From an uncultured Clostridia bacterium (GTDB lineage Bacteria > Bacillota > Clostridia > Christensenellales > UBA1242), in assembly GCA_944383915.1 (NCBI GenBank), contig CALWRJ010000023.1, positions 10,274 through 74,273 on the forward strand: DNA of 64,000 nt. Direction: 5' to 3'. The translations under genes and the position numbers were made by a program. Position 1 is the stretch's first letter. Each line of letters begins with the position of its first letter. Below the pieces are notes generated by a model. It was given only the letters and a program-made list of their open reading frames with translations. It had not been told where the DNA came from and did no database searches. Below are positions 11,011 through 60,789 of the stretch, piece after piece.

Positions 11011-11035
11011 TATGCATTATTTAAAGCATATTTTT

Positions 11036-11300: not shown

Positions 11301-11383
11301 TTTCTTAATGCTGATACACCGTGTTTATTACTTGTAAAGAATTATCCTGTAGCAATATAAAAACCACCACTATATTTTACTAA

Positions 11384-12152: not shown

Positions 12153-12410
12153 TTTAAGTTGCGTTTCTTTTATTTTAAATTTTATAAGTCGCACGCTTCT
12201 TTTTATTGTTTCTATAAAAATGTGCTTATGTTTTAAATTGGCTTTTGTTTTAAAATTTTAAAATTTCACATCATCCGTTTTTCAAGTTGGCTTTTGTTTA
12301 AAAATTTTTAAGTTGCACTTTGTTTGTTTTTAAACGGCCAAATTTTTTAAGCTGTTTTGCTTTGCTCGTTTTTTAAGTTGTCTTTCTTTTGTTTAAAATT
12401 TTTCAAGTTG
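12153..12410 (+). repeat. 7 dispersed direct copies of TT(T/C)AAG(T/C)TG in a T-rich spacer
   Basis: Copies at 12153, 12184 (TATAAGTCG), 12281, 12307, 12346, 12372 and 12402, all in the same orientation. Confidence 0.6.
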
Positions 12411-12511
12411 TGCCGATTTTTAAAATTGTTTTTGTGGACATCACTGCACCCCCTTACGAAAGATTTTTTTGCAAACATTCTGTAAATGTTCGAAACTTTC
12501 TCGTACATTTT

Positions 12512-12525
12512 AGAACATTTGTTCG
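12512..12525. promoter_or_regulatory. LexA (Cheo/SOS) box AGAACATTTGTTCG overlapping a putative promoter
   Basis: Matches the Gram-positive consensus CGAACN4GTTCG in 13/14 positions. TATAAT lies at 12531-12536, with a TTTAGA-like -35 overlapping the box. Confidence 0.55.
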
Positions 12526-12595
12526 CATTATATAATATAATTCCTGACAATGTGTGTCAACAATTATTAAAAAGTCGAAAAAATTTTGAAATATA

Positions 12596-12634
12596 TTGAA
12601 TTTTTTTGTCTAATGGCTTAAAATGTGCTATAAT
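12596..12634 (+). promoter_or_regulatory. putative sigma-A promoter(s) of the membrane-protein gene
   Basis: TTGAAT (12596-12601), 17-nt spacer, TAAAAT (12619-12624). There is also an extended -10, TGCTATAAT, at 12626-12634. Confidence 0.4.
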
Positions 12635-12655
12635 ATAGGGTGGAGAAATGAAATT

Positions 12656-14569: not shown

Positions 14570-14830
14570 CAGTAGAAAAATAAAAACAACACTTTTTTAA
14601 ATAACAGTAGAAAAATGCTTTATCGAAAAACAAAGCATACTCAAATATAGAAAACTTACACTTTCGCAAACAACAATAAAAATTGCTCTTATGAATATCA
14701 AGATAAAAAACTTTTTCTTGAATAACTAAAAACACTTTCTCGATTAGTAAAATTACGCTCTATCGAATAACAAAAAAGCACTATCTTGAATAGCAGTAGA
14801 AATGCTTTCTCGAATAGCGAAATAAAAAAA
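14557..14830 (+). repeat. about 11 degenerate ~24-bp tandem units (core CTnTCGAATAnCA...AAAAA)
   Basis: Recurrent CTCGAATAGCAGTAGAAA, ATCGAATAACAAAAAA, CTTGAATAGCAGTAGAAA and similar, starting at the stop codon of ORF 12656-14569. Confidence 0.55.
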
Positions 14831-14865
14831 ACGCCGTTTGTTTTAAATGGCGTTTTTCTTTTTAA
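14829..14865 (+). terminator. putative intrinsic terminator
   Basis: Stem AAACGCC / GGCGTTT with a 13-nt loop, followed by a T-run. Confidence 0.45.
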
Positions 14866-15316
14866 AATTTTATGAAAGGCAAATAATAACATTGTCGGTA
14901 CTTAAAAAATTTGTATTAACAAAAAAACAATCAAAGCAAGCAAACAAAATAAATGTAGTGTTTTACCAACTGAACAATTAATAACAACGCAGAAAAGACT
15001 GTGTTTTTTTACTAATAAAATAAACGATAACAATGCATAATAAAAGCAAGCAAACAAAAAAGTTTTTGACAAAACAAAAATTAAGGCAGTGCTTTTTAAT
15101 AAAAATCACCGATACGAAATTAAAAAAGCAAAGTTAGTGCTTTGCTAAGAAATTATTAAAACAAAAGGCGTACTTTTTAAAGTACAATTCGCAGGCTTTT
15201 AAATTTGATAAGTAACAACTATTTTTTTACTTTCCCAAAAATCAAGAGAGAGGATATAAAAATAATTTATTATTTTATTTATTTTTTTATTAAGAAGCCG
15301 TATTATTAGTAATGCG

Positions 15317-15476
15317 TGTGGAAATGTGGAAAACTTTAATTCTCGCCTTCCCTTTTTGCCTTAGGTTAGCCAAAATTAGAACATATGTTTGAAAACTTTT
15401 TCTGTGGATAACTATGTGGACAACCACCCAAAACTTGTGGAAAAGATGTGGAAAAGTAGTAAAAAAGTGTGGAAAA
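15317..15476 (-). promoter_or_regulatory. cluster of 7 DnaA boxes in the same orientation
   Basis: Plus-strand boxes: TGTGGAAAT 15317, TGTGGAAAA 15325, TGTGGATAA 15403 (perfect complement of TTATCCACA), TGTGGACAA 15415, and TGTGGAAAA at 15436, 15447 and 15468. Confidence 0.8.
15378..15391. promoter_or_regulatory. LexA-like box AGAACATATGTTTG (weaker)
   Basis: Two mismatches to CGAACN4GTTCG. Located inside the DnaA-box cluster. Confidence 0.35.
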
Positions 15477-15504
15477 CTCGTTTTTTTATGTATTTTTTGA
15501 AAAT

Positions 15505-15681
15505 TTAAAATTTTTTGCCCTTATTTTGCCCTTTTTTCTCTCGGCGAAACCAATCTAAATAGCGCAAATTTTCAATCTGAAATTGCAAATTTCCATTCGT
15601 GCAATTTGCAATTAGAGCGTTGTATTTTTTGCGTGTGCCGCTATAAAAATTCGCACCATTTTGCCAAAATTTTGTTTTCAT
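15505..15681 (-). CDS. possible small basic protein (58 aa), not in the ORF track
   Basis: Hand translation: MKTKFWQNGANFYSGTRKKYNALIANCTNGNLQFQIENLRYLDWFRREKKGQNKGKKF. AGGGG lies 6 nt upstream of the ATG, with a TATAAT-like -10 further upstream. Ends about 30 nt from the DnaA-box cluster. Confidence 0.3.
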   Translation of the reverse strand: MKTKFWQNGANFYSGTRKKYNALIANCTNGNLQFQIENLRYLDWFRREKKGQNKGKKF

Positions 15682-15845
15682 AACCGCCCCTGCTCTTTAA
15701 AAATTTTCGTTTTTTAGTACTTAATATATAATATATTATACGAAGTTTAGTTTTAAGTCAAATGATTTATTAAGCCAAAAATGTTAAAAGGTGCGAAAAA
15801 TTGTGAAAAAACTGTAATTTTCATCGTTTTTTCGCGAAATTTTAG

Positions 15846-15949
15846 GTACTATGCAACAAATTTACAAAAATAATGAGGTACTATGCAATATATTTGGGAA
15901 AATTGAAGTACTATGCAATAAATTCGCAAAATATTGGGATACTATGCAA
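15846..15949 (+). repeat. 4 direct copies of GTACTATGCAA spaced 32/30/31 bp (three helical turns)
   Basis: Copies at 15846, 15878, 15908 and 15938 (GATACTATGCAA). This is the reverse-complement orientation of the TGCATAGTAC motif. Lies 120-220 nt upstream of ylbJ. Confidence 0.85.
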
Positions 15950-16068
15950 CTAAATTAACTTTTTATAATATTTTTAGGTATAAATTTGTTTCAAAATTAA
16001 AAATAATAAACCGCTAGTTTAAGTCTCCGCGGTGTTATATTTATTAAATTTTTAAAATAAAATACTAT

Positions 16069-17061: not shown

Positions 17062-17174
17062 GTTTTTAATTTGCTTTATTGTTAGTTTTTGTGTGTTTTT
17101 GTTGTTTTTTATTTGTATTTTTAGTTTTATTTTGTTTTTTGCTACTTTTTTATCTTGTTCTGTTTATTTATATA

Positions 17175-17506
17175 GGCGAAAAAATTTTCGCTACGCGAAA
17201 AACATTTTCGCACTCAAAACAAAATGCTTATTCGCTACGCTCAAATTAGCAATTAGCAGGTAGCAATTAGCAATTATGGAGTTATTACTTAAATATTTAG
17301 GTATTCCTGCCTTAATTACTAATTAATTAAAGTTTTTTTTGTTACGCGCGGTTCGGCGGGGATAGAGCCCCCGCAGGCTCAATACGCCTTCGGCGAGTAC
17401 AATACTCTTTTATTATACCCAGCCTTAACTGCTAACTGCTAATTGCTAATTGCTAATTTGAGCGTAGCGAATAAGACTGCTAATTGTTAATTGCTAATTG
17501 TAAATT
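17175..17506. repeat. mosaic intergenic element L1
   Basis: GCGAAAA..TTTTCGC hairpins. AATTAGC-type array 17244-17275 is inverted relative to the GCTAATT-type array 17427-17458. The flanks CTTATTCGCTACGCTC / GAGCGTAGCGAATAAG are also inverted. GC cassette at 17343-17400. Preceded by a ~110-nt T/G-rich tract. Confidence 0.9.
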
Positions 17507-19406: not shown

Positions 19407-21515
19407 TTAAGCCGTTGTTCTGCCCCCATCACCTGCTGTGCGTTCAGTTGATGCGGTTGCTGCGTTTCTCTCTCGTGTGCTAGCATTGTTGCGTGCTGCT
19501 TGCTCTAGCCTTTCTTGAACATTTGCTGGGTTAATTGATTCCATATAACTATTTAAAAGGTCTATTTCCTCATCAGTTAAGGTGTCTCCTGCTGCCATTC
19601 TTTCCACTAAGTCTTGCGCTCTTGCGAAGTCGTCAGCAGTTAATGGTTGCTCGGTTTGCTCTTGTACAACTGGTGGCACTTCACCTTCTAATGCTTCCGC
19701 TTCCATTGGTGTTGCCTCGGGCGCTTGCGCTTCGGCGGCTTGTTGCCTACCTTCCCATGTACGCATATCAGGTCTTGAAGTCAACTCTGGATTAAACACT
19801 GCGTCCATTTGGTCTTGCGATACCCATCTTTCGTTGATAACTTCTTGATTAAATGGCTTTTGAATAGGGCCTTCATTCTTAAATTCCTCTTGTGCTTGCT
19901 TAACAACTTCATCAAGCCCTAATTTTGATGGTGGCGTGTTGCCACTAAGAATTGCATCAATGTTCGCCTGCGTAACAGGTTTGCCACGGTCTTGCAAAAC
20001 TTTGAGTTCCTCGTAAACTTGCAAGTCTACAACTTTTCCGTTTACCTCGTACTCCCCTTTTTCGTTCTTGCCTAATTGGTAACCAACAGGGTTGTTGTAA
20101 TAGTCTTGCATACCTTGGCTAGCGTTTGCCATTGCGTCTGCCATATCTTGAGTTCTTTGCTGTTCTGCTTGTTTTTGTTGTTCAACTTGCTGGTTGTATG
20201 CGTCAACGAAACCAGATTGTTGAAGGGTTTCCGCCATTTGTTTACCCATGGCTTCTCTCGCCTTTTTCTCTTGAAGTTCTACATCCCTACTCTGTCTTAA
20301 AGCAACTTCTTTAAAAGCAAGTCCGTTTATAGTAATAGTTTGTCCGTCCTTAGAGAAAGTAACCTCTTTGCCCTGGTTGATTTTAATCAAAGTGTTTTTG
20401 TTTGCCTCAATCATAGCAGTTGTGATTTCAACGCCGAATTGTTGAGTTAGGTAATCGCTCAATTCTTGCGCGTTTACCTGGTAATTAGCGATTTCATCCT
20501 TAGTTTGTTTAAGCCACGCGTCATAGTCCGCCGCGTTTTTCTTAATAAATGTACCGTCTTTTTGTTGAATGTAGTGGTAGTCCTTCGTCTTAATGTGGCG
20601 AAGTCCATCAAGGTCGGTCGTCATACTCTCAAAGTCTTTTGCTCTTAAAGTCTCGTCTACGCCTGGAATGTTGATTTTCGACCTCCACAAGTGCCAACGC
20701 GCGCGAAGTTTCAAGTCGCCCGTGTCACCCTTGTAACAGTGCGTTTCGGACAAAAACGGGTTACCTGTAATTTCCCTAACATTCGCACCAATATCAAGGC
20801 TCTTAATTTTCCAACATCCTGCGACACAGCCCTTTCCTATTACTTCTGTTTTTGGTGGGAACACAAAATCTCCACGCCCACCAAAACGCGCACGGCGTTG
20901 GTCCACAAGATTTTTGCACCCTGCCCACGCATAATCACCAATGATACGAACCTCACAGTCTGGTCCATATGTAACGTGGCGAAGGTGCGGGTTGTCCGCA
21001 CAAGCGCTGTTTCCTATTTCTACCACATTGCGCATTTTATCAAGTGGCAAATCACGAATTGCAGTGCCACGAAGTGCGTTGTCGCCGATATAGGTTGCTT
21101 GTTCTAGCACTTCAAAATTAGCATCTACAAGATTTCTAGCGCCATCAAAACTCCCCGCTGGAATTCCGTCAAGTATGGGTGAAAAACGAACCACACGCAA
21201 GTGCATTGCGTTTTGCGCATAGTTTGGGTCGATAGACCTAACGGTTGGGTCCATAACAATACGGAACATAGTTTTCTTGTCCGCATCACTAAAACGCCCT
21301 GCCTCTACCGCGTGAACGACCTTTTCTCCTAAAAATTTTGGAACGACTTGGCTCAAAGCATCACTGCTCGCCTCACGCATTTCTCTGCCTGCCAAAGTGA
21401 ATCTCATACCAAAATTAGATAATGCCGTTGCATAACGATTACGGTCGCGAGGTGGATTAGCATTCGCCATAGCAACTCTTTCTGCATCGGTCAATGGTTG
21501 GTTTGGTTCTGCCAT
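19407..21515 (-). CDS. large cytoplasmic protein with degenerate LRR_5 (BspA-type) repeats and a long Q/E-rich C-terminal region (702 aa)
   Basis: ORF-track ORF 19407-21560. I prefer the ATG at 21515, 8 nt after GGGAG. LRR_5-like units include IGDNALRG, IGNSACADN, IIGDYAWAGCKNL and VIGKGCVAGCWKIKSL. No signal peptide. Visibly higher GC than its neighbours. Confidence 0.55.
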   Translation of the reverse strand: MAEPNQPLTDAERVAMANANPPRDRNRYATALSNFGMRFTLAGREMREASSDALSQVVPKFLGEKVVHAVEAGRFSDADKKTMFRIVMDPTVRSIDPNYAQNAMHLRVVRFSPILDGIPAGSFDGARNLVDANFEVLEQATYIGDNALRGTAIRDLPLDKMRNVVEIGNSACADNPHLRHVTYGPDCEVRIIGDYAWAGCKNLVDQRRARFGGRGDFVFPPKTEVIGKGCVAGCWKIKSLDIGANVREITGNPFLSETHCYKGDTGDLKLRARWHLWRSKINIPGVDETLRAKDFESMTTDLDGLRHIKTKDYHYIQQKDGTFIKKNAADYDAWLKQTKDEIANYQVNAQELSDYLTQQFGVEITTAMIEANKNTLIKINQGKEVTFSKDGQTITINGLAFKEVALRQSRDVELQEKKAREAMGKQMAETLQQSGFVDAYNQQVEQQKQAEQQRTQDMADAMANASQGMQDYYNNPVGYQLGKNEKGEYEVNGKVVDLQVYEELKVLQDRGKPVTQANIDAILSGNTPPSKLGLDEVVKQAQEEFKNEGPIQKPFNQEVINERWVSQDQMDAVFNPELTSRPDMRTWEGRQQAAEAQAPEATPMEAEALEGEVPPVVQEQTEQPLTADDFARAQDLVERMAAGDTLTDEEIDLLNSYMESINPANVQERLEQAARNNASTRERNAATASTERTAGDGGRTTA

Positions 21516-21602
21516 AAAAAATTCTCCCTTTTTTCTTTTATTATAGTTATATTGTACCATTTTTCAAATAAAATGTCAATATTTGTAGGAAAAAAACTAA
21601 AT

Positions 21603-26798: not shown

Positions 26799-26956
26799 CC
26801 CATTATCTCCTTTTAATCTTATGATATGAAAATATTTTTTTCAAAATTAGCAATTAGCAATTAGCAATTAGCAGTTAAGGAAGTTATTTCCTAAATAATA
26901 ATTTATTAATTTCAACCACAATTCCTAATTACTAATTATTAATTATTTTATTTTTT

Positions 26957-27030
26957 GTCCTACGCGGACAGCGGTGCGGTAGACCGCACAAGTCATTAGC
27001 GTATGCAAGCATACGCGAAAGTCCGTAAAT
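26957..27030 (+). repeat. GC hairpin cassette c1 (74 nt), identical to 45057-45130
   Basis: GTCCTACGCGGAC, GTGCGGTAGACCGCAC, CATTA, GCGTATGC-AA-GCATACGC, GAAAGTCCGTAAAT. Confidence 0.9.
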
Positions 27031-27090
27031 ATTATTGCTTTTCTTTTTTTACTATACCCAGCCATAACTGCTAATTGCTAATTGCTAATT

Positions 27091-27156
27091 CGCGTGCAAC
27101 GCGTAAGCCCCCGCTGGCTCATTAGCGTATGCAAGCATACGCGAAAGTCCGTAAAT
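27091..27156 (+). repeat. GC hairpin cassette c3
   Basis: CGCGTGCAACGCG hairpin, then TAAGCCCCCGCTGGCTCATTA, then the same GCGTATGC-AA-GCATACGC hairpin and the GAAAGTCCGTAAAT tail. Confidence 0.9.
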
Positions 27157-27261
27157 AATATTGCTTTACTTTATTTTGTTTTTGATTAATTAAAAAAGGA
27201 AGTTTATTTATCTATTAAAAAGCTTCGCGCGCACGCGCACATTAACTGCTAATTGCTAATT

Positions 27262-31955: not shown

Positions 31956-32352
31956 AATTAGCAATTAGTAATTAGCAATTAGCAGTTAAGGATGAAATTA
32001 ATTTTTTATCCTTTTTTATTGTTACCAATCTCGTTTAAATTAGCAATTAGCAATTAGCAGTTAAGGAGTTATTTCTTTAAATACTTATAATCTAATAGAT
32101 TTCAGCCTTAATTCCTAATTACTAATTCCTAATTCCTAATTATTTTGCACTCCGTGCGGGGCGGGGATAGAGCCCCCGCTGGCTCATTAGCGAACAAAGT
32201 TCGCGTTCGCTCCGCTCAAATTAGCAATTAGAAATTAGGAATTAGGAATTAATGAATTTATTTATCTTAAATAATATATTTTTTAATATTCCTTCCTTAT
32301 TACTAATTACTAATTTGGAAGGTTTCCTTCCTTAACTGCTAATTGCTAATTC
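31956..32352. repeat. mosaic intergenic element L5 (upstream of rsmH)
   Basis: AATTAGC/AATTAGT arrays at 31956-31985 and 32039-32060. CCTAATT arrays at about 32109-32141. GC cassette at 32147-32205. AATTAGG array at about 32219-32250. GGAAGGTTTCCTTCC. GCTAATT array ending about 32351. The CGCAAC-TTC-GTTGCG hairpin (31941-31955) abuts the rsmH RBS. Confidence 0.9.
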
Positions 32353-32374
32353 GCGCGCCAGCGAGTAACTTCGC

Positions 32375-32775
32375 AAACTTCTACCAGTTTACAATCTTTG
32401 TAGGAGCAGATTGTCGCTCCGCTCAATCTGGTTGCGGTAGATTGCAAGTTTTTATATCTTGCAAACTTCAACCAACCTGCAATCTTTGTAGGAGCAGATT
32501 GTCGCTTCGCTCAATCTGGTTGCGGTGAATTTTATGCTAACGCATTTTTAGTTGGTTTCACATACGCTCTACCATCACAATTCTATAAGAGCAGATTGTC
32601 GCTCCGCTCAATCTGGTTGCGGTAGATTGCATGTTTTTATATCTTGCAAACTTCAACTAACCTGCAATCTTTGTAGGAGCAGATTGTCGCTCCGCTCAAT
32701 CTGGTTGCGGTGAATTGTATGCTAACGCATTTTTAGTTGGTTTCACATACGCTCACCAACTCACAATTCACCTGA
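32375..32775 (+). repeat. ~185-bp higher-order tandem repeat containing four 47-nt units
   Basis: CAATCTTTGTAGGAGCAGATTGTCGCTCCGCTCAATCTGGTTGCGGT at 32392-32438, 32480-32526, 32578-32623 (5' part diverged) and 32665-32711. The interleaved segments are also repeated. The last unit runs into the 3' end of the metallophosphoesterase gene. Confidence 0.9.
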
Positions 32776-33437
32776 TCACAACTGCAAAGCAGGTATTTTA
32801 CATCATTTTGGACAAGTTCGTGTTTGACTCGGCAATTTTTTCCGTGCAAATGCCCGTACACGACATAATCGACTTTATACTGTTCGCAAAGGCGCGTAAA
32901 ATCGGACGGGAGCATTTTTGCGTTAAACGGCGGATAGTGAATCATTACGATTCGTTTATCCCCTTCGACAAACAACTTGTCCAAATCTTTTAGTCCTAGT
33001 TCGAGCCTAATAACTTCGCGCTTGTAGATTTTTTCGTCATCGGCGTCTTTAAAATCTTTTTCGGGCACAGTCCAGCCACGAGTACCGCATATCACCGCGC
33101 CATCAAAACGAATTGCGTCATTTTGGAGCGCGTACATATTAGGTGGCAAAATCGAGCGCACCGCCGAAATTGATTTCCACCAATAATCGTGATTTCCGCG
33201 CGTGATAATCTTTTTACCCTTCAATGCGCCAATAAGTTTTATGTCTGGCTCGGCCTCCGTAAGATACATTCCCCAACTAATATCCCCAGGAATTAGCACC
33301 AAGTCATCGTCCCCGACCTTTTCATTCCAATCGGCACAAATGCGCTCAAAGTGGTTATCCCACCCAGGACCAAAAATATCCATAGGCTTTTTAACCACGC
33401 TAGATAAGTGCGTATCCCCTATTGCAAAAATTTTCAT
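32733..33437 (-). CDS. calcineurin-like metallophosphoesterase (234 aa)
   Basis: Motifs IGDTHL, GDISW, GNHDYW and YGHLH. Its RBS lies in a repeat-derived module. Its last ~50 nt are duplicated in the downstream tandem repeat. Confidence 0.75.
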   Translation of the reverse strand: MKIFAIGDTHLSSVVKKPMDIFGPGWDNHFERICADWNEKVGDDDLVLIPGDISWGMYLTEAEPDIKLIGALKGKKIITRGNHDYWWKSISAVRSILPPNMYALQNDAIRFDGAVICGTRGWTVPEKDFKDADDEKIYKREVIRLELGLKDLDKLFVEGDKRIVMIHYPPFNAKMLPSDFTRLCEQYKVDYVVYGHLHGKNCRVKHELVQNDVKYLLCSCDQVNCELVSVCETN

Positions 33438-33692: not shown

Positions 33693-33747
33693 TGCATAGT
33701 ACTAAATAAAGTTTGCATAGTACTTGCGTAATACCTATGCATAGTAC
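33693..33747 (+). repeat. 3 copies of TGCATAGTAC (spacing 21 and 24 nt)
   Basis: Copies at 33693-33702, 33714-33723 and 33738-33747. Confidence 0.9.
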
Positions 33748-33974
33748 TTAAAAATTGTGTAAAAATGGCAAATTTGTTAAATTTTGCAAAAATACAATGA
33801 AAATTTCAGCCTAAAAACTATTTTAGGTTTAACAAATAACTTTTCAAAAATTTCTTTCGCCTACCCTATTTTCTAGTAAAGGTAGCAATAAAATAATAAA
33901 AAAACCACCCCTAAATTTACTTTACTTATAATTTATTTTAAAATGTTTAATATGTCCAAATTTTTAGTTTTATA

Positions 33975-34823: not shown

Positions 34824-34916
34824 GAATTTTGCCTTGGAGTGTGCAATGCACACGGAAAGCCAGCCGAAAGTAAGAGTAATTGTCAAAGTGAGTGGCTCAC
34901 GGCTGAACTTTGAATT
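34824..34916 (+). repeat. conserved 93-nt module, copy 1 (candidate structured RNA)
   Basis: GAATTTTGCCTTGGAG-[GTGTGCA-A-TGCACAC]-GGAAAGCCAGCCGAAAGTAAGAGTAATTGTCAAAGTGAGTGGCTCACGGCTGAACTTTGAATT. Confidence 0.8.
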
Positions 34917-35180
34917 AGGAATTTTGAATTAAGGCTTTACGCTTCGCCTTTGGCTACGCTAAATTAGAAATTAGGAATTAGGAATTAGGAATTAAGGAAG
35001 GAAACCTTCCAAATTAGTAATTAGAAATTAGGAATTTTATTCGCTACGCTCAAATTAGCAATTAGCAGTTAGCAATCTACCACGCAAAGCGAGAATTAGC
35101 AATGAGCAATTAGCAATTAGCAGTTATTGTGCGCGTGCGCGCGAAGCAATTATAGATAAATAAACTTCCTTACAATATTT

Positions 35181-35276
35181 GAATTTTGCCTTGGAGTGTA
35201 CAATAATGTACACGGAAAGCCAACCGAAAGTAAGAGAGATTGTTAAAATGAAAGGCTCACGGCTGAACTTTGAATT
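35181..35276 (+). repeat. conserved module, copy 2
   Basis: Same flanks as copy 1. The hairpin is changed to GTGTACA-ATAA-TGTACAC. Confidence 0.8.
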
Positions 35277-35349
35277 TTGAATTTTGAATTATGGCAGGAA
35301 TTATCAAAAATATATAATATACCCAGCCATAACTGCTAATTGCTAATTG

Positions 35350-37431
35350 CTAACTGCTAATTCTCGCGGAGCGAGTAAGATTCTTTGTTCTCTCGAATAT
35401 ATTTTTTAGTAAAAACTGTTCGTCCGCGTCAGTGTAACCGTTATAGTCCTCTAAATATTTAGGATTGTCAACCTTATCAAAATTATCTTGCAAAATTTTA
35501 TTAAAGTCGTTATAACCTGCCCCGACCGTGATTTTTTTGACGCGATAGTGCGTTTCATCGTTCATCGCTTTATCAAAGCCTACACACACGCGTTTTAAAC
35601 ACTCCACAATCTCATCTTGCAAAACTTTATCGGAGTTGATAATTTTTAAAACACGGCTTGGCACTTCGATGTTGTCTAACGTTACCTGCTTGCGCTTTTC
35701 GTCATACCACACCCACGCCTGCCCAAGTATTCTTTCCCCTTTTTTTATCACCAAAAAACCCGAATTTGCTCGCGTCATACCGTACTCCACGCACTCCTGC
35801 GCCGAATTTCCATAAGTTTGGCAACAGTTCGTTATGTCTCCGAGCACAGCGCCGAGCGGGTCATTTTTAGAAAGAAGTTCGTACGAAACCTTCGTTTTTT
35901 CGGTATCGGGAGCGCATTTAAGTGTTAACTCGTCATCGGGAATGCTAATTCCCTTTAAGTACCACTTTGAAATCGCGTCAAAATCGTCTTGCGAATAACC
36001 GTAATTTGCTAGTAAACTAGCGAGTTTTTCCGTTTTTTCGGTAACATTTTGGTAATTTACGCTTAACAAATAATCTCTTACCATTTTTGGAGTAAGGCGC
36101 TCGTTGTCTTGACGCGTAATTATCTTTTTATTAGGAAAATCTCTCAAAATTTTATTGAAGTTATCGTGCGCCCTGTACATTAAATTCACCCCGTCTTTCA
36201 CCATAAAATCAGGGTTTTCAGGGAAATACAGCATAAAAAACTGTGCAAATTCGTGATTGTATTTTTTGTTTTTAGAGTTGAAATCAAACATTTCGTGAAT
36301 TTGAGTTTCATTATAAACGCCAAGAATATGCTCTTTTATAAAATTTGTAGCAATGCTAGACTCTTTTCCGTCTCTACTAAACACCCCTAGCGCGTGCGCA
36401 AGCCCAAAAAGCGAAATTCGATTTACATCGTTTTGAATATTCGCAATTTTTGAGATTTCACGCCAATTTTTTTCGTTGTTATTGCAGTAAAATAAAGGAA
36501 TTTCAGATAAAAATAGGTTGTCTACAAGTGAATAGTGCGGAATAGTTTTATCGAGTTTTAGCCACTCGATTAGTGCTGGATAACTATCATAATTGCCGAT
36601 TAATTTATCTAAATTGTTCCATTTTGTCGCCTTGCTTTTGATAATCTCGTCATTTATTACCCTAAAATCGCCACTTAAATCATATATATAGCAGTTTCCT
36701 TTTCTATCTAAAAACATAGCGTTTGTGTTATTCGTTTCTAACCTTTTTAAACCGTCATTTTCGGTAAAAAAATGCACATTTTCGTATGCTCGAAGTTCGG
36801 TTACGCCGTTATAAACATCGGCAAGCGTATAAATCCCAATAGAAGTATGTTTAATGCTATCAAAATGGCTATTATGATATTTCCGCAAGCCGTTTGGCAA
36901 AAAAATGCTGTGAATATTTGTATTTGTAAGTGCTTCGCTTTCAATAAAAAGTAAATTGTCGTTTAATTTGATTTTTTGTAAACTTTCGCAACCGAAAAAA
37001 GCCCTAGCCATAATCATAAGCACATTTTTAGGACAAGCAAAACTTGATAGTGATTTGCACCCTTCAAAACAACTTTCGCCCAACTCGATTACTCCGTCCG
37101 CCGAAACAAACTCAACACTATTAAGGCTCTCGCACCCCATAAACGCACCAAAGGGAATGTTCTTTAAATTAGGACAATCAATTTTCACCCTTTTTAAACT
37201 TGTACACCCTAAAAAAGCGCACTCGCCAAACTCGGTTAAAGATTTTGGCAAGTCCACTTCCTCTAAATTTACAAAATCTTTAAAAGTCTCGCTTTTTATT
37301 CCCGAAAAATCATTAGGAAAATTAATTTTTCTAACACTTCTTTTGTCTAATCCTTCCAACTTCTCAGGCGACATCGTGCTGTCTTTTAGTATAAGCGTTC
37401 CGTCCGCCTGTAAAATATAATTCTCCGCCAA
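35350..37431 (-). CDS. LRR_5 (BspA-type leucine-rich repeat) protein with an uncharacterised Cys-rich C-terminal domain (693 aa)
   Basis: TTG start after GGAAGGAAGG. Clear LRR_5 units in the N-terminal 200 aa (ECAFLGCTSLKRV, FGAFMGCESLNSV, ESCFEGCKSLSS, RAFFGCESLQKI). The C-terminal domain carries DITNCCQTYGNSAQECVEYG...GQAWVWYD. No signal peptide. The last ~10 codons and the TAG stop lie in repeat-derived sequence. Confidence 0.7.
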   Translation of the reverse strand: MAENYILQADGTLILKDSTMSPEKLEGLDKRSVRKINFPNDFSGIKSETFKDFVNLEEVDLPKSLTEFGECAFLGCTSLKRVKIDCPNLKNIPFGAFMGCESLNSVEFVSADGVIELGESCFEGCKSLSSFACPKNVLMIMARAFFGCESLQKIKLNDNLLFIESEALTNTNIHSIFLPNGLRKYHNSHFDSIKHTSIGIYTLADVYNGVTELRAYENVHFFTENDGLKRLETNNTNAMFLDRKGNCYIYDLSGDFRVINDEIIKSKATKWNNLDKLIGNYDSYPALIEWLKLDKTIPHYSLVDNLFLSEIPLFYCNNNEKNWREISKIANIQNDVNRISLFGLAHALGVFSRDGKESSIATNFIKEHILGVYNETQIHEMFDFNSKNKKYNHEFAQFFMLYFPENPDFMVKDGVNLMYRAHDNFNKILRDFPNKKIITRQDNERLTPKMVRDYLLSVNYQNVTEKTEKLASLLANYGYSQDDFDAISKWYLKGISIPDDELTLKCAPDTEKTKVSYELLSKNDPLGAVLGDITNCCQTYGNSAQECVEYGMTRANSGFLVIKKGERILGQAWVWYDEKRKQVTLDNIEVPSRVLKIINSDKVLQDEIVECLKRVCVGFDKAMNDETHYRVKKITVGAGYNDFNKILQDNFDKVDNPKYLEDYNGYTDADEQFLLKNIFERTKNLTRSARISS

Positions 37432-40445: not shown

Positions 40446-40542
40446 AAAAATTTACCTTAAAGTTTTTTGTTTTTGGTATTTTAATTTGTTTGCTTTGTTA
40501 TTTGTTTTTTTATTTTTATTTGCTTTGTTATTTGTACTTTTT

Positions 40543-40938
40543 GGCGAAAAGATTTTTGACTTCGCAAAAAACATTTTCGCACATAAAACAAAATTTTTAA
40601 ATTTTCATCCTTAATTCCTAAATCCTAATTCCTAATTATATGCACTCCGTGCGGGGCGGGGATAGAGCCCCCGCTGGCTCAATATGCCTACGGCGAGTAC
40701 TTTTACTATATCAAATCTATCCTGTTTGCACTTATCGAATATTTATTGTAAAAAGGATTTATATTTCTAATTATTATTAAAAGGATTTTTATCCTTAATT
40801 CCTAATTTTCTAATTACTAATTTAAGCGTAGCCGAATGGCGAAGCGTAAAGCCTTAATTACTAATTTCTAATTACTAATTACTAATTTGGAAGGTTTCCT
40901 TCCGCAATCCCTAAGTCCTAATTCCTAATTCCTAATTC
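40543..40938. repeat. mosaic element L9 between the topoisomerase B and A subunit genes
   Basis: GCGAAAA hairpins. CCTAATT arrays. GC cassette at 40642-40700. Junction TAAGCGTAGCCGAATGGCGAAGCGTAAAGCC. ACTAATT arrays. GGAAGGTTTCCTTCC. Preceded by an ~80-nt T/G-rich tract. Confidence 0.9.
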
Positions 40939-42952: not shown

Positions 42953-43427
42953 AATTAGCAATGAGCAATTAGCAGTTAGCAGTTAAGGATGAAATTTATA
43001 TTTTATCCTATTTATTGCTTACTAACTCGTTTTAATTTTACTTGCTACACAAGAATTAGCAATTAGCAAAGAATGAAGGAAATTTATCTAATTAATATCT
43101 TTAAATAATTCCCAGAATATTTACTAATGCCTAATCACTCATTAAATAGAATAAAACTTTCCAACTGCGCAACATAAATTAGCAATGCTTAATTTAAATA
43201 TTACCTTATTGTTGACTTTTTGCTTTGTCACCTTCGCTTTAAATTTTGAATTAGGAATTTTGCCTTGGAGTATGCAACGCATACGGAAAGCCAGACGATA
43301 GTTAGAGTAATTGTCAAAGTGAACGGCTTACGGCTGAACTTTGAATTAAGGAGTTATTTTCAAAAGTAATTTTATATTTAGAAAATTCCTTCCTTAACTG
43401 CTAATTGCTAATTGCTAATTGCTAATT
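42953..43427. repeat. mosaic intergenic element L10
   Basis: AATTAGC-type arrays at 42953-42983 and about 43054-43068. 93-nt module copy 3 (43255-43347). (GCTAATT)x4 ending at 43427. The hairpin TTATTTTGGAC-AAA-GTCCAAAATAA (42928-42952) lies in the B-subunit leader. Confidence 0.85.
43255..43347 (+). repeat. conserved module, copy 3
   Basis: Same flanks as copies 1 and 2. The hairpin is changed to GTATGC-AAC-GCATAC. Confidence 0.8.
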
Positions 43428-44883: not shown

Positions 44884-45516
44884 AAAATTTCCGCTACGCG
44901 AAAACATTTAAGCAAAACAAACAAAATGCTTATTCGCTACGCTCAAATTAGCAATTAGCAGGTAGCAATTAGCAATTATGGAAGTTATTTTCTAAATAAT
45001 ATTTTAATTAATTCCCAGCCACAACTCCTAATTCCTAATTCCTAATTACTATTTATGTCCTACGCGGACAGCGGTGCGGTAGACCGCACAAGTCATTAGC
45101 GTATGCAAGCATACGCGAAAGTCCGTAAATTTTTAACTGTTGTTTTTATATTTACTTAATTTTAAACTTAAAGGCTATAATATATCAATATTTTTTAGAT
45201 ACTTTCAAAATTTCTAAAAGCGGAGTAAAATTAAATAAGTATAAGTAGCAAGAAATTTTGTCCGTAATTCAAAATTCAAAATTCAAAATTGCGCGAAGCG
45301 CTAAGCCTTAACTGCTACCTGCTAATTGCTAATTGCTAATTCGCGTGTAACGCGTAAGCCCCCGCTGGCTCAATAGCGAACAAAGTTCGCAAATAATTAA
45401 ATTACCCAGCAATAATTCAAAATTCCTAATTCAAAATTCAAAATTCGAGCGTCAGCAAGTAGGCTTGCGCGCTAGCGCCCCGTAATTCAAAATTCAAAAT
45501 TCAAAATTCAAAATTT
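44884..45516. repeat. mosaic intergenic element L11 (longest, about 630 bp)
   Basis: Order: GCGAAAA module; CTTATTCGCTACGCTC; AATTAGC array; AT linker; CCTAATT array; GC cassette 45057-45130; fold-back module 45206-45260; AATTCAA array; GCGCGAAGCGCTAAGCC; GCTAATT array; GC cassette 45342-45390; AATTCAA arrays flanking GTAGGCTTGCGCGCTAGCGCC. Confidence 0.9.
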
Positions 45517-46687: not shown

Positions 46688-48091
46688 ATGATTTCACTCG
46701 TGGTTACCGCGGACACCAAAAATTACAACCCCGCCGAGCGCGACTTAGCCTTTTCGGCGTTGCTTGCAAAGTACAAAGAACCATTTGAAATTGTGTATGT
46801 TGCGAACGCAGACTACCCCTACCTTGACGAACTCCGTAAAATCGCTTCTGGAAATGACAGAAAACTTGTAGTTACTGCGCCAACAACGAATATTAATACA
46901 CAAATCTACACAGCACTAGACTATACGGACAACGGTGATGTTTTGCTAGCGACACTAGACACCAATCTTGCTCTAATTCAGAAAATTATCGAAAAGCACC
47001 GTGAAGGCGCTGATTTGGTATTTGTTAAGCAACAAGAAAATTGGTTTAAAAATATGTTTATCGCACTTGGGCGCGCTACCTATCAATTAGGGCTAAAAAT
47101 ACTCGGGCGCGGGCACGATATGTGCTGTGACGCGCGCGTCTTGTTTTTAAACAATCGTTCGGTAAATACAATTATTTTAAACCCAACTTTAAGTAAGGCT
47201 TTAAGGCTTGTCAACCCAGACCCTGACAAAACTTCGCGCATTCTTGACGAAAAAGTCATTTACGACAACCCCACGCCTACGCAAAAAGGCGCAAACAATT
47301 CGTTTATGTCGCTTGGTATCGTTTCGCTATTTTATATAATTGCCCTACTTGTCCTTGCAATCGTTTTCCCACTATGCAATTCGGGCGTTTACACCGTTTG
47401 GATACTTGTCGCACTAATTTTGTGGCTTGTACTAGGAATTATCGGCTGTGTCGTTGTCGCGAAATTTATTTACAACACGCGACTAGGACTGCCCGTTGCT
47501 ATAAATCTGGCTGGCGAGCCGATAATTAATATTACCGAAGTCGTGGCAAGCGAATACCAAACTGTATTTGACGAAAACGAACCAATTACTACCCCAAACA
47601 CCGCTTTCGCTGATGAAATTGATGAAAATGAAAGCGAAAATGTCGATGTTGATGTAGTAAATCTTGACGAAACGATTGTAGACCTTGATAACACAGAAAC
47701 CGCAGAAAATGACACAAAGTCTGCGCAAAACGAAACAAAGGACGCAAAAACAAGCGCTAAGGCAAAACAAAGCGCAACTTCAAAAGCGAAAATTACTTCA
47801 AGTAAAGCAAGAGCGCAAAGCGAAACAGACACTTTAAATATTGCTGAAACCGAAAACACGACTAAAAAAGCAGAAAACACTTCAAGCGATGCTAAAACGG
47901 AAAGCGCCAAAACAACTAAAAAAGCAACACAATCCCCTAGCACCGCAAAGAAAACAACAACTAATAAGAAAACGACTAAATCAAGCACGAAAACAACAAC
48001 CAAAAAAGCAAGTGCTACTAAAACAACCGCAAAAAAATCAACTAAAACAGGCGCAAAGAAACCGAAGGTTTCAGTGCGTAACCGCACTTCA

Positions 48092-48097
<6 letters not shown>
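46688..48097 (+). CDS. membrane protein with a degenerate GT2-like N-terminal domain and a K/T-rich disordered tail (469 aa)
   Basis: N-terminal 190 aa loosely GT2-like (EIVYVANADYP, GDVLLATLDTN). Two TM helices and a low-complexity lysine/threonine tail. The TAG stop (48095-48097) is inside the first AATTAGC heptamer of the downstream repeat. Confidence 0.55.
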
Positions 48098-49514
<1,417 letters not shown>

Positions 49515-50289: not shown

Positions 50290-50565
50290 AGCAAAAATTT
50301 TTGCTGGTAGCAAAATCTTTTTGCACATAAAACAAAATGCTTCGCATTATTTTTTGCACTCCGTGCAGGGCGGGGATAGAGCCCCCGCAGGCTCAATAGC
50401 GTATGCAAGCATACGCGGAAGTCCGTAAATACAATTTCTTTGCTTTTTTATGTTAATGCTAAATTATGCTAGTTAAAAAAGGTTTTCATTTTCTTTAAAG
50501 CTTCGCGCGCTAGCGCCCCTTAATTCAAATTTCCTAATTCAAAATTTAAAATTCGAGCGATAGCG
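50290..50565. repeat. mosaic intergenic element L14
   Basis: GCAAAAATTTTTGC-type hairpins. GC cassette at 50356-50430. Junction GCTTCGCGCGCTAGCGCC. AATTCAA-type array. CGAGCGATAGCG module. Confidence 0.85.
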
Positions 50566-52533: not shown

Positions 52534-52905
52534 CTCGCTTTGCGTGAATTAGCAGTTAGCAATATACTACGCAAAGCGAGAATTAGCAATGAGCAATCTT
52601 ATTCGCTAACGCTCAAATTAGCAATTAGCAATTAGCAGTTAATGTGCGCTAGCGCGCAAACAATTTATAGTTAAATAAACTTTCTTTTAATTTAAAATTA
52701 ACAAAATAAAGAAATGTAATAATATTTACGGACTTCCGCGCATTTATGCGCTATTGGGAGTGCGCCTTCGCACCGCACCGCGCGTAGCGGAAAAAATAAA
52801 ATAATTAGGAATTAGTAATTAGGAATTAAGGATAAATATATATTTATTTTGTTTCTGTGCAAAAAGATTTTGCGCTAGCAAAAATTTTTGCCAAAATCTA
52901 ACAAA
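52534..52905. repeat. mosaic intergenic element L15
   Basis: 12-bp-stem hairpin CTCGCTTTGCGT...ACGCAAAGCGAG (52534-52580) enclosing a heptamer array. CTTATTCGCTAACGCTC plus an AATTAGC array. GTGCGCTAGCGCGC. GC cassette at 52734-52790 (minus orientation). AATTAGG/AATTAGT array. GCAAAAA hairpins. Confidence 0.9.
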
Positions 52906-60560: not shown

Positions 60561-60789
60561 TTACGCTTCGCCGTTCGGCTTTGCTTAAATTAGTAATTAG
60601 GAATTAGAAATTAAGAATTAAGGCTTAGCGCTTCGCCGTTGGCTCGCTTTAATTTTGAATTAGGAATTAGGAATTTTGAATTAAGGCTGAAATAATCTAA
60701 ATTATATTTTATACCCAGCAATAATTGCTCATTGATAATTGCTAATTGCTAATTCGCGTGCAACGCGTAAGATTGCTAATTTGAGCAAA
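60561..60789. repeat. mosaic intergenic element L16
   Basis: CTTACGCTTCGCCGTTCGGCTTTGCTT plus AATTAGT/AATTAGG arrays. CTTAGCGCTTCGCCGTTGGCTCGCTT plus TTGAATT/AATTAGG arrays. AT linker ending in ACCCAGCA. GCTAATT array. CGCGTGCAACGCG hairpin. Confidence 0.9.

What the first reader, a model, noticed from the sequence alone, without database searches (positions are those of the whole stretch)
26957..27156. GC-rich cassette family whose hairpins differ in sequence but stay self-complementary at the same position
At least 10 cassettes share the frame (5' hairpin part)-CA(A/T)TA-(hairpin)-tail. Coordinates:
- Plus orientation: 17343-17400, 26957-27030, 27091-27156, 32147-32205, 40642-40700, 45057-45130, 45342-45390, 50356-50430.
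- Minus orientation: 48151-48282, 52734-52790.
The hairpin after CAATA/CATTA takes six different forms: GCGTATGC-AA-GCATACGC (4 copies), GCGCAT-AA-ATGCGC, GCGAAC-AAA-GTTCGC (2 copies), CGCC-TTC-GGCG, TGCC-TAC-GGCG and GTACTC-GCAA-GAGTAC. The 5' hairpin also switches between GCGGGG-ATAGAG-CCCCGC, GTGCGG-TAGA-CCGCAC and GGGACGG-TAG-CCCGTCC. Retention of pairing with a changed sequence is the classical signature of selection on secondary structure, whether in RNA or in single-stranded DNA. The 130-nt copy at 48151-48282 contains all parts and may be the full-length form. The 74-nt copies at 26957 and 45057 are identical, which suggests recent spread.
Basis: seen in the sequence. Interest (0 to 1): 0.75.

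Follow-up and report, generated by a model that had tools for sequence, protein, structure and literature searches.

The report
Mosaic hairpin repeats filling intergenic DNA
The GC-rich "cassettes" are real: they are small, modular, hairpin-forming repeats sitting at the tips of long heptamer-repeat palindromes that have invaded the spaces between genes in one uncultured gut Clostridia lineage, and they look like selfish mosaic repeat DNA (similar in kind to REP/BIME, BOX, bcr or cyanobacterial SDR elements), not a conserved functional RNA.

Summary
All 10 cassettes exist where stated and share the frame hairpin A, hairpin B, CA(A/T)TA, hairpin C, tail. GC-rich perfect hairpins are about 13 times more frequent in intergenic DNA than in shuffles. 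Pairing is kept while sequence changes: 48 of 48 cells paired, 5 of 6 stem positions change on both sides, and no wobble pairs occur.

The cassettes are not free-standing. They sit at the apex of 250-310 nt foldback composites whose about 50-nt arms are heptamer arrays (DNA fold z = -11 and -6.3).

Cassette history is decoupled from the flanks. One pair is 74/74 identical inside flanks that are 83.5% identical. Another pair has flanks about 95% identical but different cassettes.

Orthologous spacers in a sister species are 13 and 23 bp, against about 405 and 236 bp here. More distant relatives lack the repeats altogether. There are no matches in Rfam, in GTDB representative genomes (11 hits, at chance level), in JGI metagenomes, or in the phage and plasmid collections. 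The cassettes are not terminator-like and show no strand-specific G·U signal.

Verdict: this is a lineage-specific family of mosaic palindromic repeat DNA, a new variant of a known kind. Selection on an RNA structure is not needed to explain it. The mobilising mechanism is unknown. Interest is moderate.

The parts
17343..17400 (+). Short cassette: TACGCGCGG, then GCGGGG-ATAGAGC-CCCCGC, then AGGCTCAATA, then CGCC-TTC-GGCG, then AGTAC.
   Evidence: It lies at the apex of the foldback 17227-17475.
26957..27030 (+). Cassette: GTCC-TACGC-GGAC, then GTGCGG-TAGA-CCGCAC, then AAGTCATTA, then GCGTATGC-AA-GCATACGC, then GAAAGTCCGTAAAT.
   Evidence: It is 74/74 identical to 45057-45130.
27091..27156 (+). 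5'-truncated cassette: arm-terminal module CGCGTGCAACGCGTAAG, then CCCCCGCTGGCTCATTA, then the GCGTATGC hairpin, then the tail.
32147..32205 (+). Cassette: GCAC-TCC-GTGC, then the GCGGGG/CCCCGC hairpin, then TGGCTCATTA, then GCGAAC-AAA-GTTCGC.
   Evidence: It lies between the inverted heptamer arms 32108-32141 and 32219-32252.
40642..40700 (+). Cassette in the gyrB-gyrA spacer: GCACTCCGTGC, then the GCGGGG/CCCCGC hairpin, then TGGCTCAATA, then TGCCTACGGCGAGTAC.
   Evidence: The spacer is 514 bp here, 10 bp in L015.
45057..45130 (+). Cassette identical to 26957-27030.
45342..45390 (+). 5'-truncated cassette with the same junction as 27091 (CGCGTGTAACGCGTAAG|CCCCCGCTGGCTCAATA) but with the inner hairpin GCGAAC-AAA-GTTCGC.
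50356..50430 (+). Cassette: GCACTCCGTGC, then the GCGGGG/CCCCGC hairpin, then AGGCTCAATA, then the GCGTATGC hairpin, then GGAAGTCCGTAAAT.
48151..48282 (-). Longest cassette (132 nt): CCGC-TACGC-GCGG, then GGACGG-TAGC-CCGTCC, then AAGCAATAGCCTCCTTGAA, then GTACTC-GCAA-GAGTAC, then GGAAAGT, then CATCCGT...ACGGATG, then CCAGCGAGTAC.
   Evidence: It lies in the apex of the foldback 48089-48397. It is inserted where the sister species has a 13-bp spacer.
52724..52790 (-). Cassette: CCGCTACGCGCGG, then GTGCG-AAGG-CGCAC, then TCCCAATA, then GCGCAT-AA-ATGCGC, then GGAAGTCCGTAAAT.
34824..34924 (+). Related element of the 'D17' family: GCCTTGGA|GTGTGC-AAT-GCACAC|GGAAAGC-CAGCCG...CGGCTG. It is homologous to the 3' two-thirds of the long cassette.
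35181..35284 (+). D17-family element with hairpin GTGTACA-ATAA-TGTACAC.
43255..43355 (+). D17-family element with hairpin GTATGC-AAC-GCATAC.
17227..17475 (+). Foldback composite. It has 53-nt inverted arms made of heptamer arrays plus a CTTATTCGCTACGCTCA end module, and it encloses cassette 17343.
   Evidence: arms 91% complementary. (DNA fold -60.6 kcal/mol, z = -11.0).
26845..27090 (+). Foldback composite, (AATTAGC)n ... (GCTAATT)n, enclosing cassette 26957.
   Evidence: 29-nt arms, 97% complementary..
44928..45359 (+). Foldback composite enclosing cassette 45057. It is a paralogue of 26845-27127 with an extra insert of about 170 nt.
48089..48397 (-). Foldback composite, near-identical in its flanks to 17190-17480 but carrying the long cassette.
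   Evidence: z = -6.3.
60755..60771 (+). CGCGTGCAACGCGTAAG module followed directly by ATTGCTAATT. This may be the unoccupied state of the junction that carries the truncated cassettes at 27091 and 45342.
   Evidence: The interpretation as an empty site is an inference.

Best explanation
The cassettes are non-coding, non-autonomous repeat DNA. They are chains of two to four short perfect palindromes occupying the apex of long foldback composites whose arms are heptamer arrays (AATTAGC / GCTAATT and variants).

Shown:
- The composites and cassettes are insertions that expanded the intergenic spacers of this lineage.
- Cassettes are copied or replaced as units, independently of the flanking composite.
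- Smaller palindromic cores vary inside otherwise constant frames.

Inferred:
- The hairpins matter at the DNA level. They would form as single-stranded or cruciform DNA during replication or recombination.
- In that form they are either the substrate recognised by a trans-acting enzyme (by analogy with REP/RAYT and IS200/IS605 ends), or they are kept perfectly complementary by hairpin-templated repair or template switching.
- This would explain why complementarity is strictly Watson-Crick and strand-symmetric.
- Any effect on co-transcribed mRNAs is a by-product. The trend towards antisense orientation relative to flanking genes would then reflect selection against the orientation that places GC hairpins in front of U-rich tracts.
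For: Host and distribution:
- The host is an uncultured gut Clostridia. Evidence: GyrB relatives named Clostridia or Christensenellales MAGs, a YlbJ sporulation-protein homologue, a penicillin-binding protein with a PASTA domain, and no HIP1 motif.
- Relatives with GyrB 87-90% identical carry none of the modules. Their gyrB-gyrA spacer is 10 bp, against 514 bp here.
- In the sister species (about 80% DNA identity) the spacers are 13 bp and 23 bp where the window has about 405 bp (foldback plus long cassette) and 236 bp.
- Only D17-type pieces are shared with about 190 kb of relatives' DNA.
- The divergent promoter spacer 46489-46687 is conserved with the sister species and free of repeats.
- The prophage-bearing 1-16 kb lacks the repeats.

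Architecture and decoupling:
- The cassettes sit at the apex of foldbacks with 29-54-nt arms that are 78-97% complementary (z = -11 and -6.3).
- Decoupling in one direction: cassette 74/74 identical against flank 91/109 (p = 6e-5).
- Decoupling in the other direction: flanks 195/206 identical against cassette 36/64 plus 68 gap columns (p = 4e-12).
- 27091 and 45342 share a truncated junction but differ in the inner hairpin.

Nature of the pairing:
- Pairing is strictly Watson-Crick, 48/48 cells with no wobble.
- Mismatch types are symmetric between strands, 6 against 6.

Negative searches:
- No Rfam match.
- Not terminator-like; the real terminators lie elsewhere.
- No match in phages or plasmids, in IMG/VR or in JGI metagenomes.
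- In GTDB representatives, the scan with the B1-CAWTA junction pattern (AGCCCCCGCWGGCTCAWTA) gave only chance hits.
Against: - No transposase, HUH/RAYT, TnpB or reverse transcriptase gene lies in the 64 kb, so no mobilising enzyme is identified.
- No target-site duplications could be defined.
- No clean empty/filled pair exists within one species.
- The stem variants follow a shared G-Y-R-Y-R-Y pattern and differ mostly by paired transitions. This is what gradual compensatory evolution under selection for structure would also give.
- The D17 element is conserved across two species, with a second covarying helix (CAGCCG/CGGCTG against CATCCG/CGGATG).
- The sample is small: 13 elements plus 1-2 from the sister species.
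- There are no expression data.
Confidence: 0.6

Rival explanations
1. The cassettes, or at least the long/D17 form, are structured RNA elements. They would act either as cis-acting parts of mRNAs (stabilisers, processing sites, attenuators) or as small RNAs, and their helices would be maintained by selection on RNA folding.
For: - Covariation is present in P1 (4-5 of 6 pairs) and in one pair of P2.
- Many copies lie inside probable operons, so they must be transcribed.
- 7 of 8 copies in co-directional spacers have the same orientation relative to the genes.
- Fold z-scores for single cassettes reach -3.7 and -4.5.
Against: - No G·U pairs at all, and no strand asymmetry of mismatches.
- The orientation bias is not significant (p = 0.07).
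- Most single-cassette folds are not better than shuffles, with z from -0.3 to -2.4.
- Truncated and rearranged copies exist.
- The cassettes are absent from orthologous spacers of relatives.
- No Rfam match, and no terminator-like architecture in the one interval scanned (44700-52950).
Confidence: 0.2
2. The elements are classical MITEs or REP-type elements moved by a specific enzyme encoded elsewhere in the genome. That enzyme would be either a DDE transposase recognising the heptamer-array inverted repeats, or a Y1/HUH enzyme (RAYT or IS200/IS605 TnpA type) recognising the GC hairpins on single-stranded DNA.
For: - Long terminal inverted repeats and strong foldback potential.
- Filled against empty orthologous sites.
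- A recent identical copy.
- 10 of 13 elements lie in one orientation along a region of uniformly negative GC skew.
Against: - No target-site duplication was found.
- The shared sequence extends beyond the inverted repeats.
- GTAG occurs only inside loops, not as a 5' tag.
- The cassettes are not arranged as inverted doublets.
- No candidate enzyme lies in the window.
- The orientation bias is not significant (p = 0.09).
Confidence: 0.25
3. The 'covariation' is purely mutational. Quasi-palindrome correction by intramolecular template switching, or hairpin-templated repair, continually makes imperfect inverted repeats perfect and creates new local palindromes. No selection on structure or mobility would be involved.
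For: - Stems are perfect, with zero wobble intermediates despite transition-type differences.
- Palindromes are interleaved: GCGGGG...CCCCGC overlaps ATAGAGCC...GGCTCAAT.
- In GCGAAC-AAA-GTTCGC, the 3' arm aligns with the tail GTCCGT of other copies, and the 5' arm looks like its newly made complement.
Against: - This does not explain dispersal to new loci or the cassette-versus-flank decoupling.
- It does not explain the conserved unpaired frames CAWTA and GGAAAGYC.
Confidence: 0.15

Closest known systems
Small dispersed repeats (SDR1-8) of Nostoc punctiforme and relatives (Elhai et al. 2008, Genome Res 18:1484; paper not held here, recalled from memory; SDR5 insertion into HIP1 is mentioned in PMC4390886)
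   Same: Both are very small hairpin-forming modules embedded in tandem heptamer arrays and minitransposon-like elements. In both, different sequences share one predicted structure with compensatory changes, the arrangements are nested or mosaic, and the mobilising mechanism is unknown.
   Different: - The host here is a gut Clostridia, not a cyanobacterium, and there is no HIP1.
- The heptamers are AATTAGC-type.
- The modules are chained into 50-130-nt cassettes at foldback apices.
- Sequence relatedness to SDR1-8 could not be tested.
REP / BIME / REPIN elements with RAYT transposases (PMC3116915; PMC3733652)
   Same: Both are extragenic GC-rich palindromes in high local copy number. Both combine motifs into mosaics, as BIMEs do, and form hairpins presumed to act as single-stranded DNA.
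   Different: - There is no 5' GTAG or CGTC tag; GTAG occurs only in the loops of two variants.
- There is no inverted-doublet (REPIN) organisation.
- No RAYT is seen in the window.
- The cassettes are embedded in AT-rich heptamer foldbacks.
BOX elements of Streptococcus pneumoniae and S. suis (PMC3049150)
   Same: Both occur in Firmicutes hosts and are modular (boxA-boxBn-boxC, with alternative modules in S. suis). Both predict stem-loops, insert in transcribed intergenic regions, and have an undefined mobilisation mechanism.
   Different: There is no sequence similarity. The modules here are 11-20-nt perfect palindromes rather than 45-60-nt boxes. Heptamer arms are absent from BOX.
bcr1 and other bcr repeats of the Bacillus cereus group (reviewed in PMC3184786)
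   Same: Both are interspersed repeats in Firmicutes with base-pair compensatory changes that keep a cruciform-like structure. Their distribution is not conserved between relatives.
   Different: bcr1 is a roughly 155-bp unit with 5-bp direct repeats and documented transcription. Here no direct repeats were found, there are no expression data, and the internal modularity is much greater.
MITEs such as Nezha or Correia (PMC3184786)
   Same: Both have terminal inverted repeats, strong fold-back potential, and empty versus filled sites between related species.
   Different: No target-site duplication and no parent IS were identified. The arms are tandem heptamers rather than IS-derived inverted repeats.

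Membership tests
REP/REPIN-RAYT | A 20-40-bp imperfect palindrome with an unpaired GTAG (or CGTC) tag at one end | tested here: not met
   GTAG is present only within the loops of GTGCGG-TAGA-CCGCAC and GGACGG-TAGC-CCGTCC. No cassette hairpin has a terminal tag.
REP/REPIN-RAYT | Two REPs in inverted orientation forming a REPIN doublet | tested here: not met
   Each cassette is a chain of different hairpins in one orientation. The inverted repeats around them are heptamer arrays, not REP copies.
REP/REPIN-RAYT | A RAYT (Y1 HUH transposase) gene in the same genome | not testable with these tools
   Only 64 kb are available, and Pfam/NCBIfam scans found none there. The 148.7-kb source contig could not be retrieved.
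MITE | Terminal inverted repeats | tested here: met
   Arms are 29-54 nt and 78-97% complementary. Fold z-scores are -11.0 and -6.3.
MITE | Target-site duplications flanking the element | tested here: inconclusive
   No consistent direct repeats were seen at the ends. The sequence shared between copies extends beyond the inverted repeats.
MITE | Empty and filled orthologous sites in related genomes | tested here: met
   Spacers are 13 bp and 23 bp in L024 against about 405 bp and 236 bp in the window. The gyrB-gyrA spacer is 10 bp in L015 against 514 bp.
MITE | A parent IS with matching inverted repeats | not testable with these tools
   No IS lies in the window, and the rest of the genome is unavailable.
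Cyanobacterial SDR elements | Small hairpin modules embedded in tandem heptamer repeats | tested here: met
Cyanobacterial SDR elements | Different sequences sharing one structure, supported by compensatory changes | tested here: met
Cyanobacterial SDR elements | Sequence identity to SDR1-8, and confinement to Nostocaceae | tested here: not met
   The host is a Clostridia, and HIP1 (GCGATCGC) occurs 0 times in the window. The SDR sequences themselves were not available for comparison.
Any Rfam RNA family | A covariance-model match at or near the gathering score | tested here: not met
   There were 0 matches at gathering thresholds. At E <= 5, no hit was specific to a cassette; the one overlapping match (MIR828, a plant miRNA model, 17227-17475, E = 3.8) spans a whole foldback and is at chance level.
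Intrinsic terminators | A GC hairpin immediately followed by a T run on the transcribed strand | tested here: not met
   The scan of 44700-52950 reports true terminators at 50568-50597 and 45516-45543, but none at cassettes 45057, 45342, 48151, 50356 or 52724.

The most novel reading that the evidence does not exclude
A Firmicute counterpart of the cyanobacterial 'smallest mobile elements': 10-20-nt palindromic modules that insert or are rewritten at the apex of heptamer-array foldbacks. They would be mobilised or maintained by an undescribed enzyme or replication-linked process specific for single-stranded DNA hairpins, one that enforces strictly Watson-Crick complementarity. If so, two unrelated phyla would share one unknown mechanism, and this lineage would be a tractable second system for finding it.
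Probability: 0.25. Interest if true: 0.7.

Novelty: new variant of a known kind. Interest (0 to 1): 0.45.

Why it matters
About 22% of this window is intergenic. Much of that is built from a small vocabulary of heptamer arrays and mini-palindromes that close relatives lack.

That makes the lineage a natural experiment in how very small repeats invade a compact bacterial genome. The invasion reaches operons such as gyrB-gyrA and the spacers flanking the GAPDH gene, and it even supplies a new stop codon.

The mechanism that moves or rewrites such sub-100-nt modules has been unknown since they were described in Nostoc. A second, unrelated host with a low-copy sister species for comparison could make that question testable.

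For genome annotation the practical lesson is that covariation in dispersed palindromic repeats should not be read as evidence for a functional RNA without strand-specific signals.

Tried and rejected
1. Cyanobacterial origin. This was my first guess, from the heptamers. It is rejected: there is no HIP1, the gene content includes sporulation-type genes such as a YlbJ homologue, and the GyrB relatives are Clostridia or Christensenellales MAGs.
2. Known RNA family. Rfam gave nothing on the cassettes at gathering or at E-value thresholds.
3. Intrinsic terminators. The cassettes are not predicted as terminators.
4. Finding more copies elsewhere.
   - A GTDB-representative scan with AGCCCCCGCWGGCTCAWTA gave 11 hits, all single chance matches, mostly in GC-rich or coding contexts.
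   - JGI metagenome scans with the D17 frame and with the heptamer boundary gave 0 hits.
   - IMG/VR gave only a coding-sequence chance match, or nothing.
   - The plasmid and phage BLAST searches gave nothing.
5. Retrieving the source contig or other strains. The exact-protein look-ups failed for the window's own proteins. Only a sister species was reachable.
6. A covariance model of the D17/long form found no further copies in 190 kb.
7. REP/RAYT membership fails on the tag and doublet criteria.
8. Integron attC sites were considered only from the anatomy. There are no gene cassettes and no integrase, and the insertions lie between core genes. This was not pursued.
9. A small ORF in D17 was considered. 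It lacks a conserved start codon and the frame is broken in the long form. This was inspected by eye only.
10. An H-type pseudoknot formed by the interleaved GCGGGG/CCCCGC and ATAGAGCC/GGCTCAAT helices. It is rejected as sterically impossible, because the connecting loops are 0-1 nt.
Full report
OBSERVATION

They are modular. A short 5' hairpin comes first: GCAC-TCC-GTGC, GTCC-TACGC-GGAC, CCGC-TACGC-GCGG, or in two copies the module CGCGTGYAACGCGTAAG. A second hairpin follows: GCGGGG-ATAGAGC-CCCCGC, GTGCGG-TAGA-CCGCAC, GGACGG-TAGC-CCGTCC or GTGCG-AAGG-CGCAC. Then come a linker ending in CA(A/T)TA, a third hairpin, and one of two tails, G(A/G)AAGTCCGTAAAT or GCGAGTAC.

Some corrections are needed:
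- The copy given as 52734-52790 extends to 52724.
- In the 132-nt copy the GTACTC/GAGTAC hairpin lies 11 nt after CAATA.
- Two of the hairpin 'forms' have only 3-4 bp.
- Copies 27091 and 45342 are 5'-truncated.

The pattern is far beyond chance. Intergenic DNA holds 34 perfect GC-rich hairpins, against 2.6 +/- 1.6 in dinucleotide shuffles, and their density is 5.6 times that in coding DNA.

HOST AND DISTRIBUTION

I first suspected a heterocystous cyanobacterium because of the heptamer arrays. The evidence says otherwise. HIP1 is absent. The genes include a YlbJ sporulation-protein homologue, a penicillin-binding protein with a PASTA domain, and a cell-wall/division (dcw) cluster. The GyrB relatives are MAGs named Clostridia or Christensenellales from human and animal gut metagenomes.

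The repeat system is lineage-specific:
- Relatives with GyrB 87-90% identical have none of the modules or heptamers. In L015 gyrB and gyrA are 10 bp apart, against 514 bp here.
- A sister species (about 80% DNA identity in gyrB) has a few heptamer arrays and one related element.
- The pattern AGCCCCCGCWGGCTCAWTA gave only chance hits in 185,579 GTDB representative genomes.
- Two JGI metagenome scans, two IMG/VR scans and the plasmid and phage BLAST searches found nothing real.
- Rfam has no match at gathering or at permissive thresholds.

Printing the intergenic regions shows that they are built from a small vocabulary. It includes heptamer arrays (AATTAGC, AATTAGG, AATTCAA and their complements), AT-rich hairpins, and mini-palindromes such as GGAAGG-TTT-CCTTCC (five copies) and GCGCG-CA-CGCGC. 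It also includes end modules such as CTTATTCGCTACGCTCA.

The cassettes sit inside long inverted repeats whose arms are heptamer arrays:
- 17227-17279 with 17423-17475 (53 nt, 91% complementary)
- 26852-26880 with 27062-27090 (29 nt, 97%)
- 32108-32141 with 32219-32252 (34 nt, 91%)
- 44928-44981 with 45306-45359 (54 nt, 78%)
- 48089-48127 with 48342-48380 (39 nt, 90%)

Folded as single-stranded DNA, 17227-17475 gives -60.6 kcal/mol (z = -11.0) and 48089-48397 gives -54 kcal/mol (z = -6.3). In both, the cassette lies in the branched apex.

A second family, here called 'D17', lies at 34824-34924, 35181-35284 and 43255-43355, with one copy in the sister species. It has the frame GCCTTGGA|hairpin|GGAAAGC-CAGCCG...CGGCTG and is homologous to the 3' two-thirds of the 132-nt cassette.

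The short forms look like the long form in two ways. The GCGAGTAC type (17343, 40642) looks like it with an internal deletion. The GTCCGTAAAT type looks like it with a 3' truncation. The direction of change, deletion or accretion, is an inference.

COVARIATION

I used only the unpaired anchors to define columns: CAWTA or CTTGRA on the 5' side and G(G)AAAGYC on the 3' side. Eight distinct sequences (seven distinct 6-bp stems) then give 48/48 paired cells, 5 of 6 pairs changed on both sides and 17 double-change cells, with 0 of 500 shuffles as high.

In the five-sequence D17/long alignment, P1 is 100% paired with 4 of 6 covarying pairs. A second helix changes from CAGCCG/CGGCTG to CATCCG/CGGATG.

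Three features argue that this is not the usual RNA signature:
1. There is not a single one-sided (G·U) cell, even though most differences are transitions along a G-Y-R-Y-R-Y pattern.
2. Among hairpins with one mismatch, G·T and A·C are equally frequent, 6 against 6, so neither strand is favoured.
3. Single cassettes mostly do not fold better than shuffles on either strand.

CASSETTES ARE EXCHANGED AS UNITS

Loci 26830-27200 and 44925-45440 are paralogous composites. The cassette is 74/74 identical, but the left flank is only 91/109 identical (83.5%; Fisher p = 6e-5).

Conversely, 17190-17480 and the reverse complement of 48085-48430 have flanks that are 141/148 and 54/58 identical. They carry different cassettes, 58 nt against 132 nt, with 36/64 aligned identities and 68 gap columns (p = 4e-12).

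Copies 27091 and 45342 share the same truncated junction (CGCGTGYAACGCGTAAG|CCCCCGCTGGCTCAWTAGCG) but differ in the core of the next hairpin, TATGCAAGCATA against AACAAAGTT, inside a constant GCG...CGC.

At 60755-60771 the same junction module is followed directly by ATTGCTAATT, which may be an unoccupied site (inference).

Most of the 'different hairpin forms' between cassettes therefore arise by replacement or rewriting of modules, not by slow compensatory drift of one homologous helix. The stems in the hairpin|GGAAAG frame are a partial exception, and they do look like a graded series.

INSERTIONS RELATIVE TO THE SISTER SPECIES

In L024 the 455-aa gene, the GAPDH gene and the TM2-domain gene are separated by 13 bp and 23 bp. 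In the window the same junctions are about 405 bp (foldback with the long cassette, 48098-48503) and 236 bp (heptamers and mini-palindromes, 49515-49750).

The stop codon of the window's 469-aa ORF lies in the first heptamer (AATTAG), so the insertion rewrote the gene's 3' end.

The divergent promoter spacer between the fructose-bisphosphate aldolase gene and the 469-aa gene is conserved between the two species and free of repeats. The repeats are also missing from the prophage-bearing 1-16 kb and from 53.8-58 kb.

None of the cassettes is terminator-like, while genuine terminators are found nearby. In co-directional spacers 7 of 8 elements are antisense to the genes (p = 0.07), and 10 of 13 share one orientation along a stretch of uniformly negative GC skew (p = 0.09). 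These are suggestive trends only.

INTERPRETATION

Shown:
- This is a lineage-specific family of mosaic, palindrome-rich repeat DNA that has expanded intergenic spacers.
- Its GC cassettes occupy foldback apices and are copied or replaced independently of their flanks.
- Complementarity is maintained, strictly Watson-Crick.

Inferred:
- The hairpins act at the DNA level. One possibility is that they are substrates for a trans-acting enzyme specific for single-stranded DNA hairpins, as with REP/RAYT or IS200/IS605 ends. The other is that they are kept perfect by hairpin-templated repair or template switching.
- Effects on mRNA are by-products.

No enzyme candidate lies in the window and no target-site duplications could be defined, so the mobilisation step is unknown.

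The main rival is a selected RNA structure, most plausibly for the D17/long form, which is shared by two species. It is not excluded, and I rate it at about 0.2.

COMPARISON WITH KNOWN SYSTEMS

The closest in kind are the small dispersed repeats of Nostoc. As I recall from Elhai et al. 2008 (not held in the library), these are hairpin modules embedded in heptamer arrays, with a shared structure supported by compensatory changes and an unknown mechanism. The SDR5/HIP1 relation is mentioned in PMC4390886.

Other comparable systems:
- REP/BIME/REPIN elements (PMC3116915, PMC3733652)
- modular BOX elements (PMC3049150)
- bcr1, which shows compensatory changes (PMC3184786)
- MITEs (PMC3184786)

Membership in REP/REPIN fails on the tag and doublet criteria. 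The MITE criteria are met for inverted repeats and for empty/filled sites, but not for target-site duplications or a parent IS. The SDR-like features are met, except for taxon and the untested sequence identity.

I therefore file this as a new variant of a known kind of element, in an unexpected host, with moderate interest.

Noticed in passing
window 1-16068: This is a prophage-like region, with a P22-like portal protein at 4462-6384 and a large terminase at 7462-8910. Its large intergenic spaces lack the heptamer arrays and GC cassettes. They carry instead their own repeats based on TGCATAGTAC / GTACTATGCA, for example a 20-nt unit repeated 5 times at 8989-9090, and further arrays at 10981-11017 and 15837-15956. 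The same decamer occurs again at 33700-33760 and 54984-55073.
   Followed up: partly
whole window: Tetranucleotide bias is extreme. GATC occurs 2 times (222 expected), GGCC 13 and CCGG 11 (88 expected each). CGCG occurs 415 times, GCGC 439 times (88 expected each) and GCGCGC 61 times (3.3 expected). This suggests strong restriction-avoidance or methylation-related pressure and a general excess of alternating GC.
   Followed up: partly
window 48037-48097: The stop codon of the 469-aa ORF (46688-48097) lies inside the first heptamer of the inserted array (..TCAAATTAG). The C-terminus differs from that of the sister-species orthologue. The repeat insertion has therefore remodelled a gene end.
   Followed up: partly
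window 32373-32769: A 185-nt unit is tandemly duplicated (2 copies, 96% matches) with an 88-nt sub-period. It contains CAGATTG-TCGCTCCGCT-CAATCTG hairpins whose loop is the common TCGCTCCGCTCA module. It overlaps the mechanically called start of ORF 32733-33437.
   Followed up: no
window 40446-40540 (complement), 17062-17140, 44786-44870; L017 5600-5760 and 17636-17800: Low-complexity (C)AAAACAAA-type tracts about 100 nt long lie next to genes, in both the window and the sister species. On the sense strand they lie upstream of gyrA. They might be A/C-rich leaders.
   Followed up: no
window 17160-17200, 40546-40575, 44880-44905, 48425-48450, 50290-50320, 52855-52900: This is another class of AT-rich palindromes with GC clamps (GCGAAAA..TTTTCGC, GCAAAAATTTTTGC). 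They recur next to the composites, and shared sequence extends beyond the heptamer inverted repeats.
   Followed up: no
window 19407-21560, 35350-37431; L012, L017 and L020: Several large BspA-type leucine-rich-repeat (LRR_5) proteins are interleaved with core genes such as gyrB and gyrA. Their number and position differ between relatives.
   Followed up: no
L017 2859-3147: This intergenic stretch lies a short ORF (2718-2858) downstream of smpB in the sister species and ends in ...GGTTCGACTCCCATCGCTTCCACCA. It looks like the tmRNA gene. The identification is by eye only and was not run through ARAGORN.
   Followed up: no
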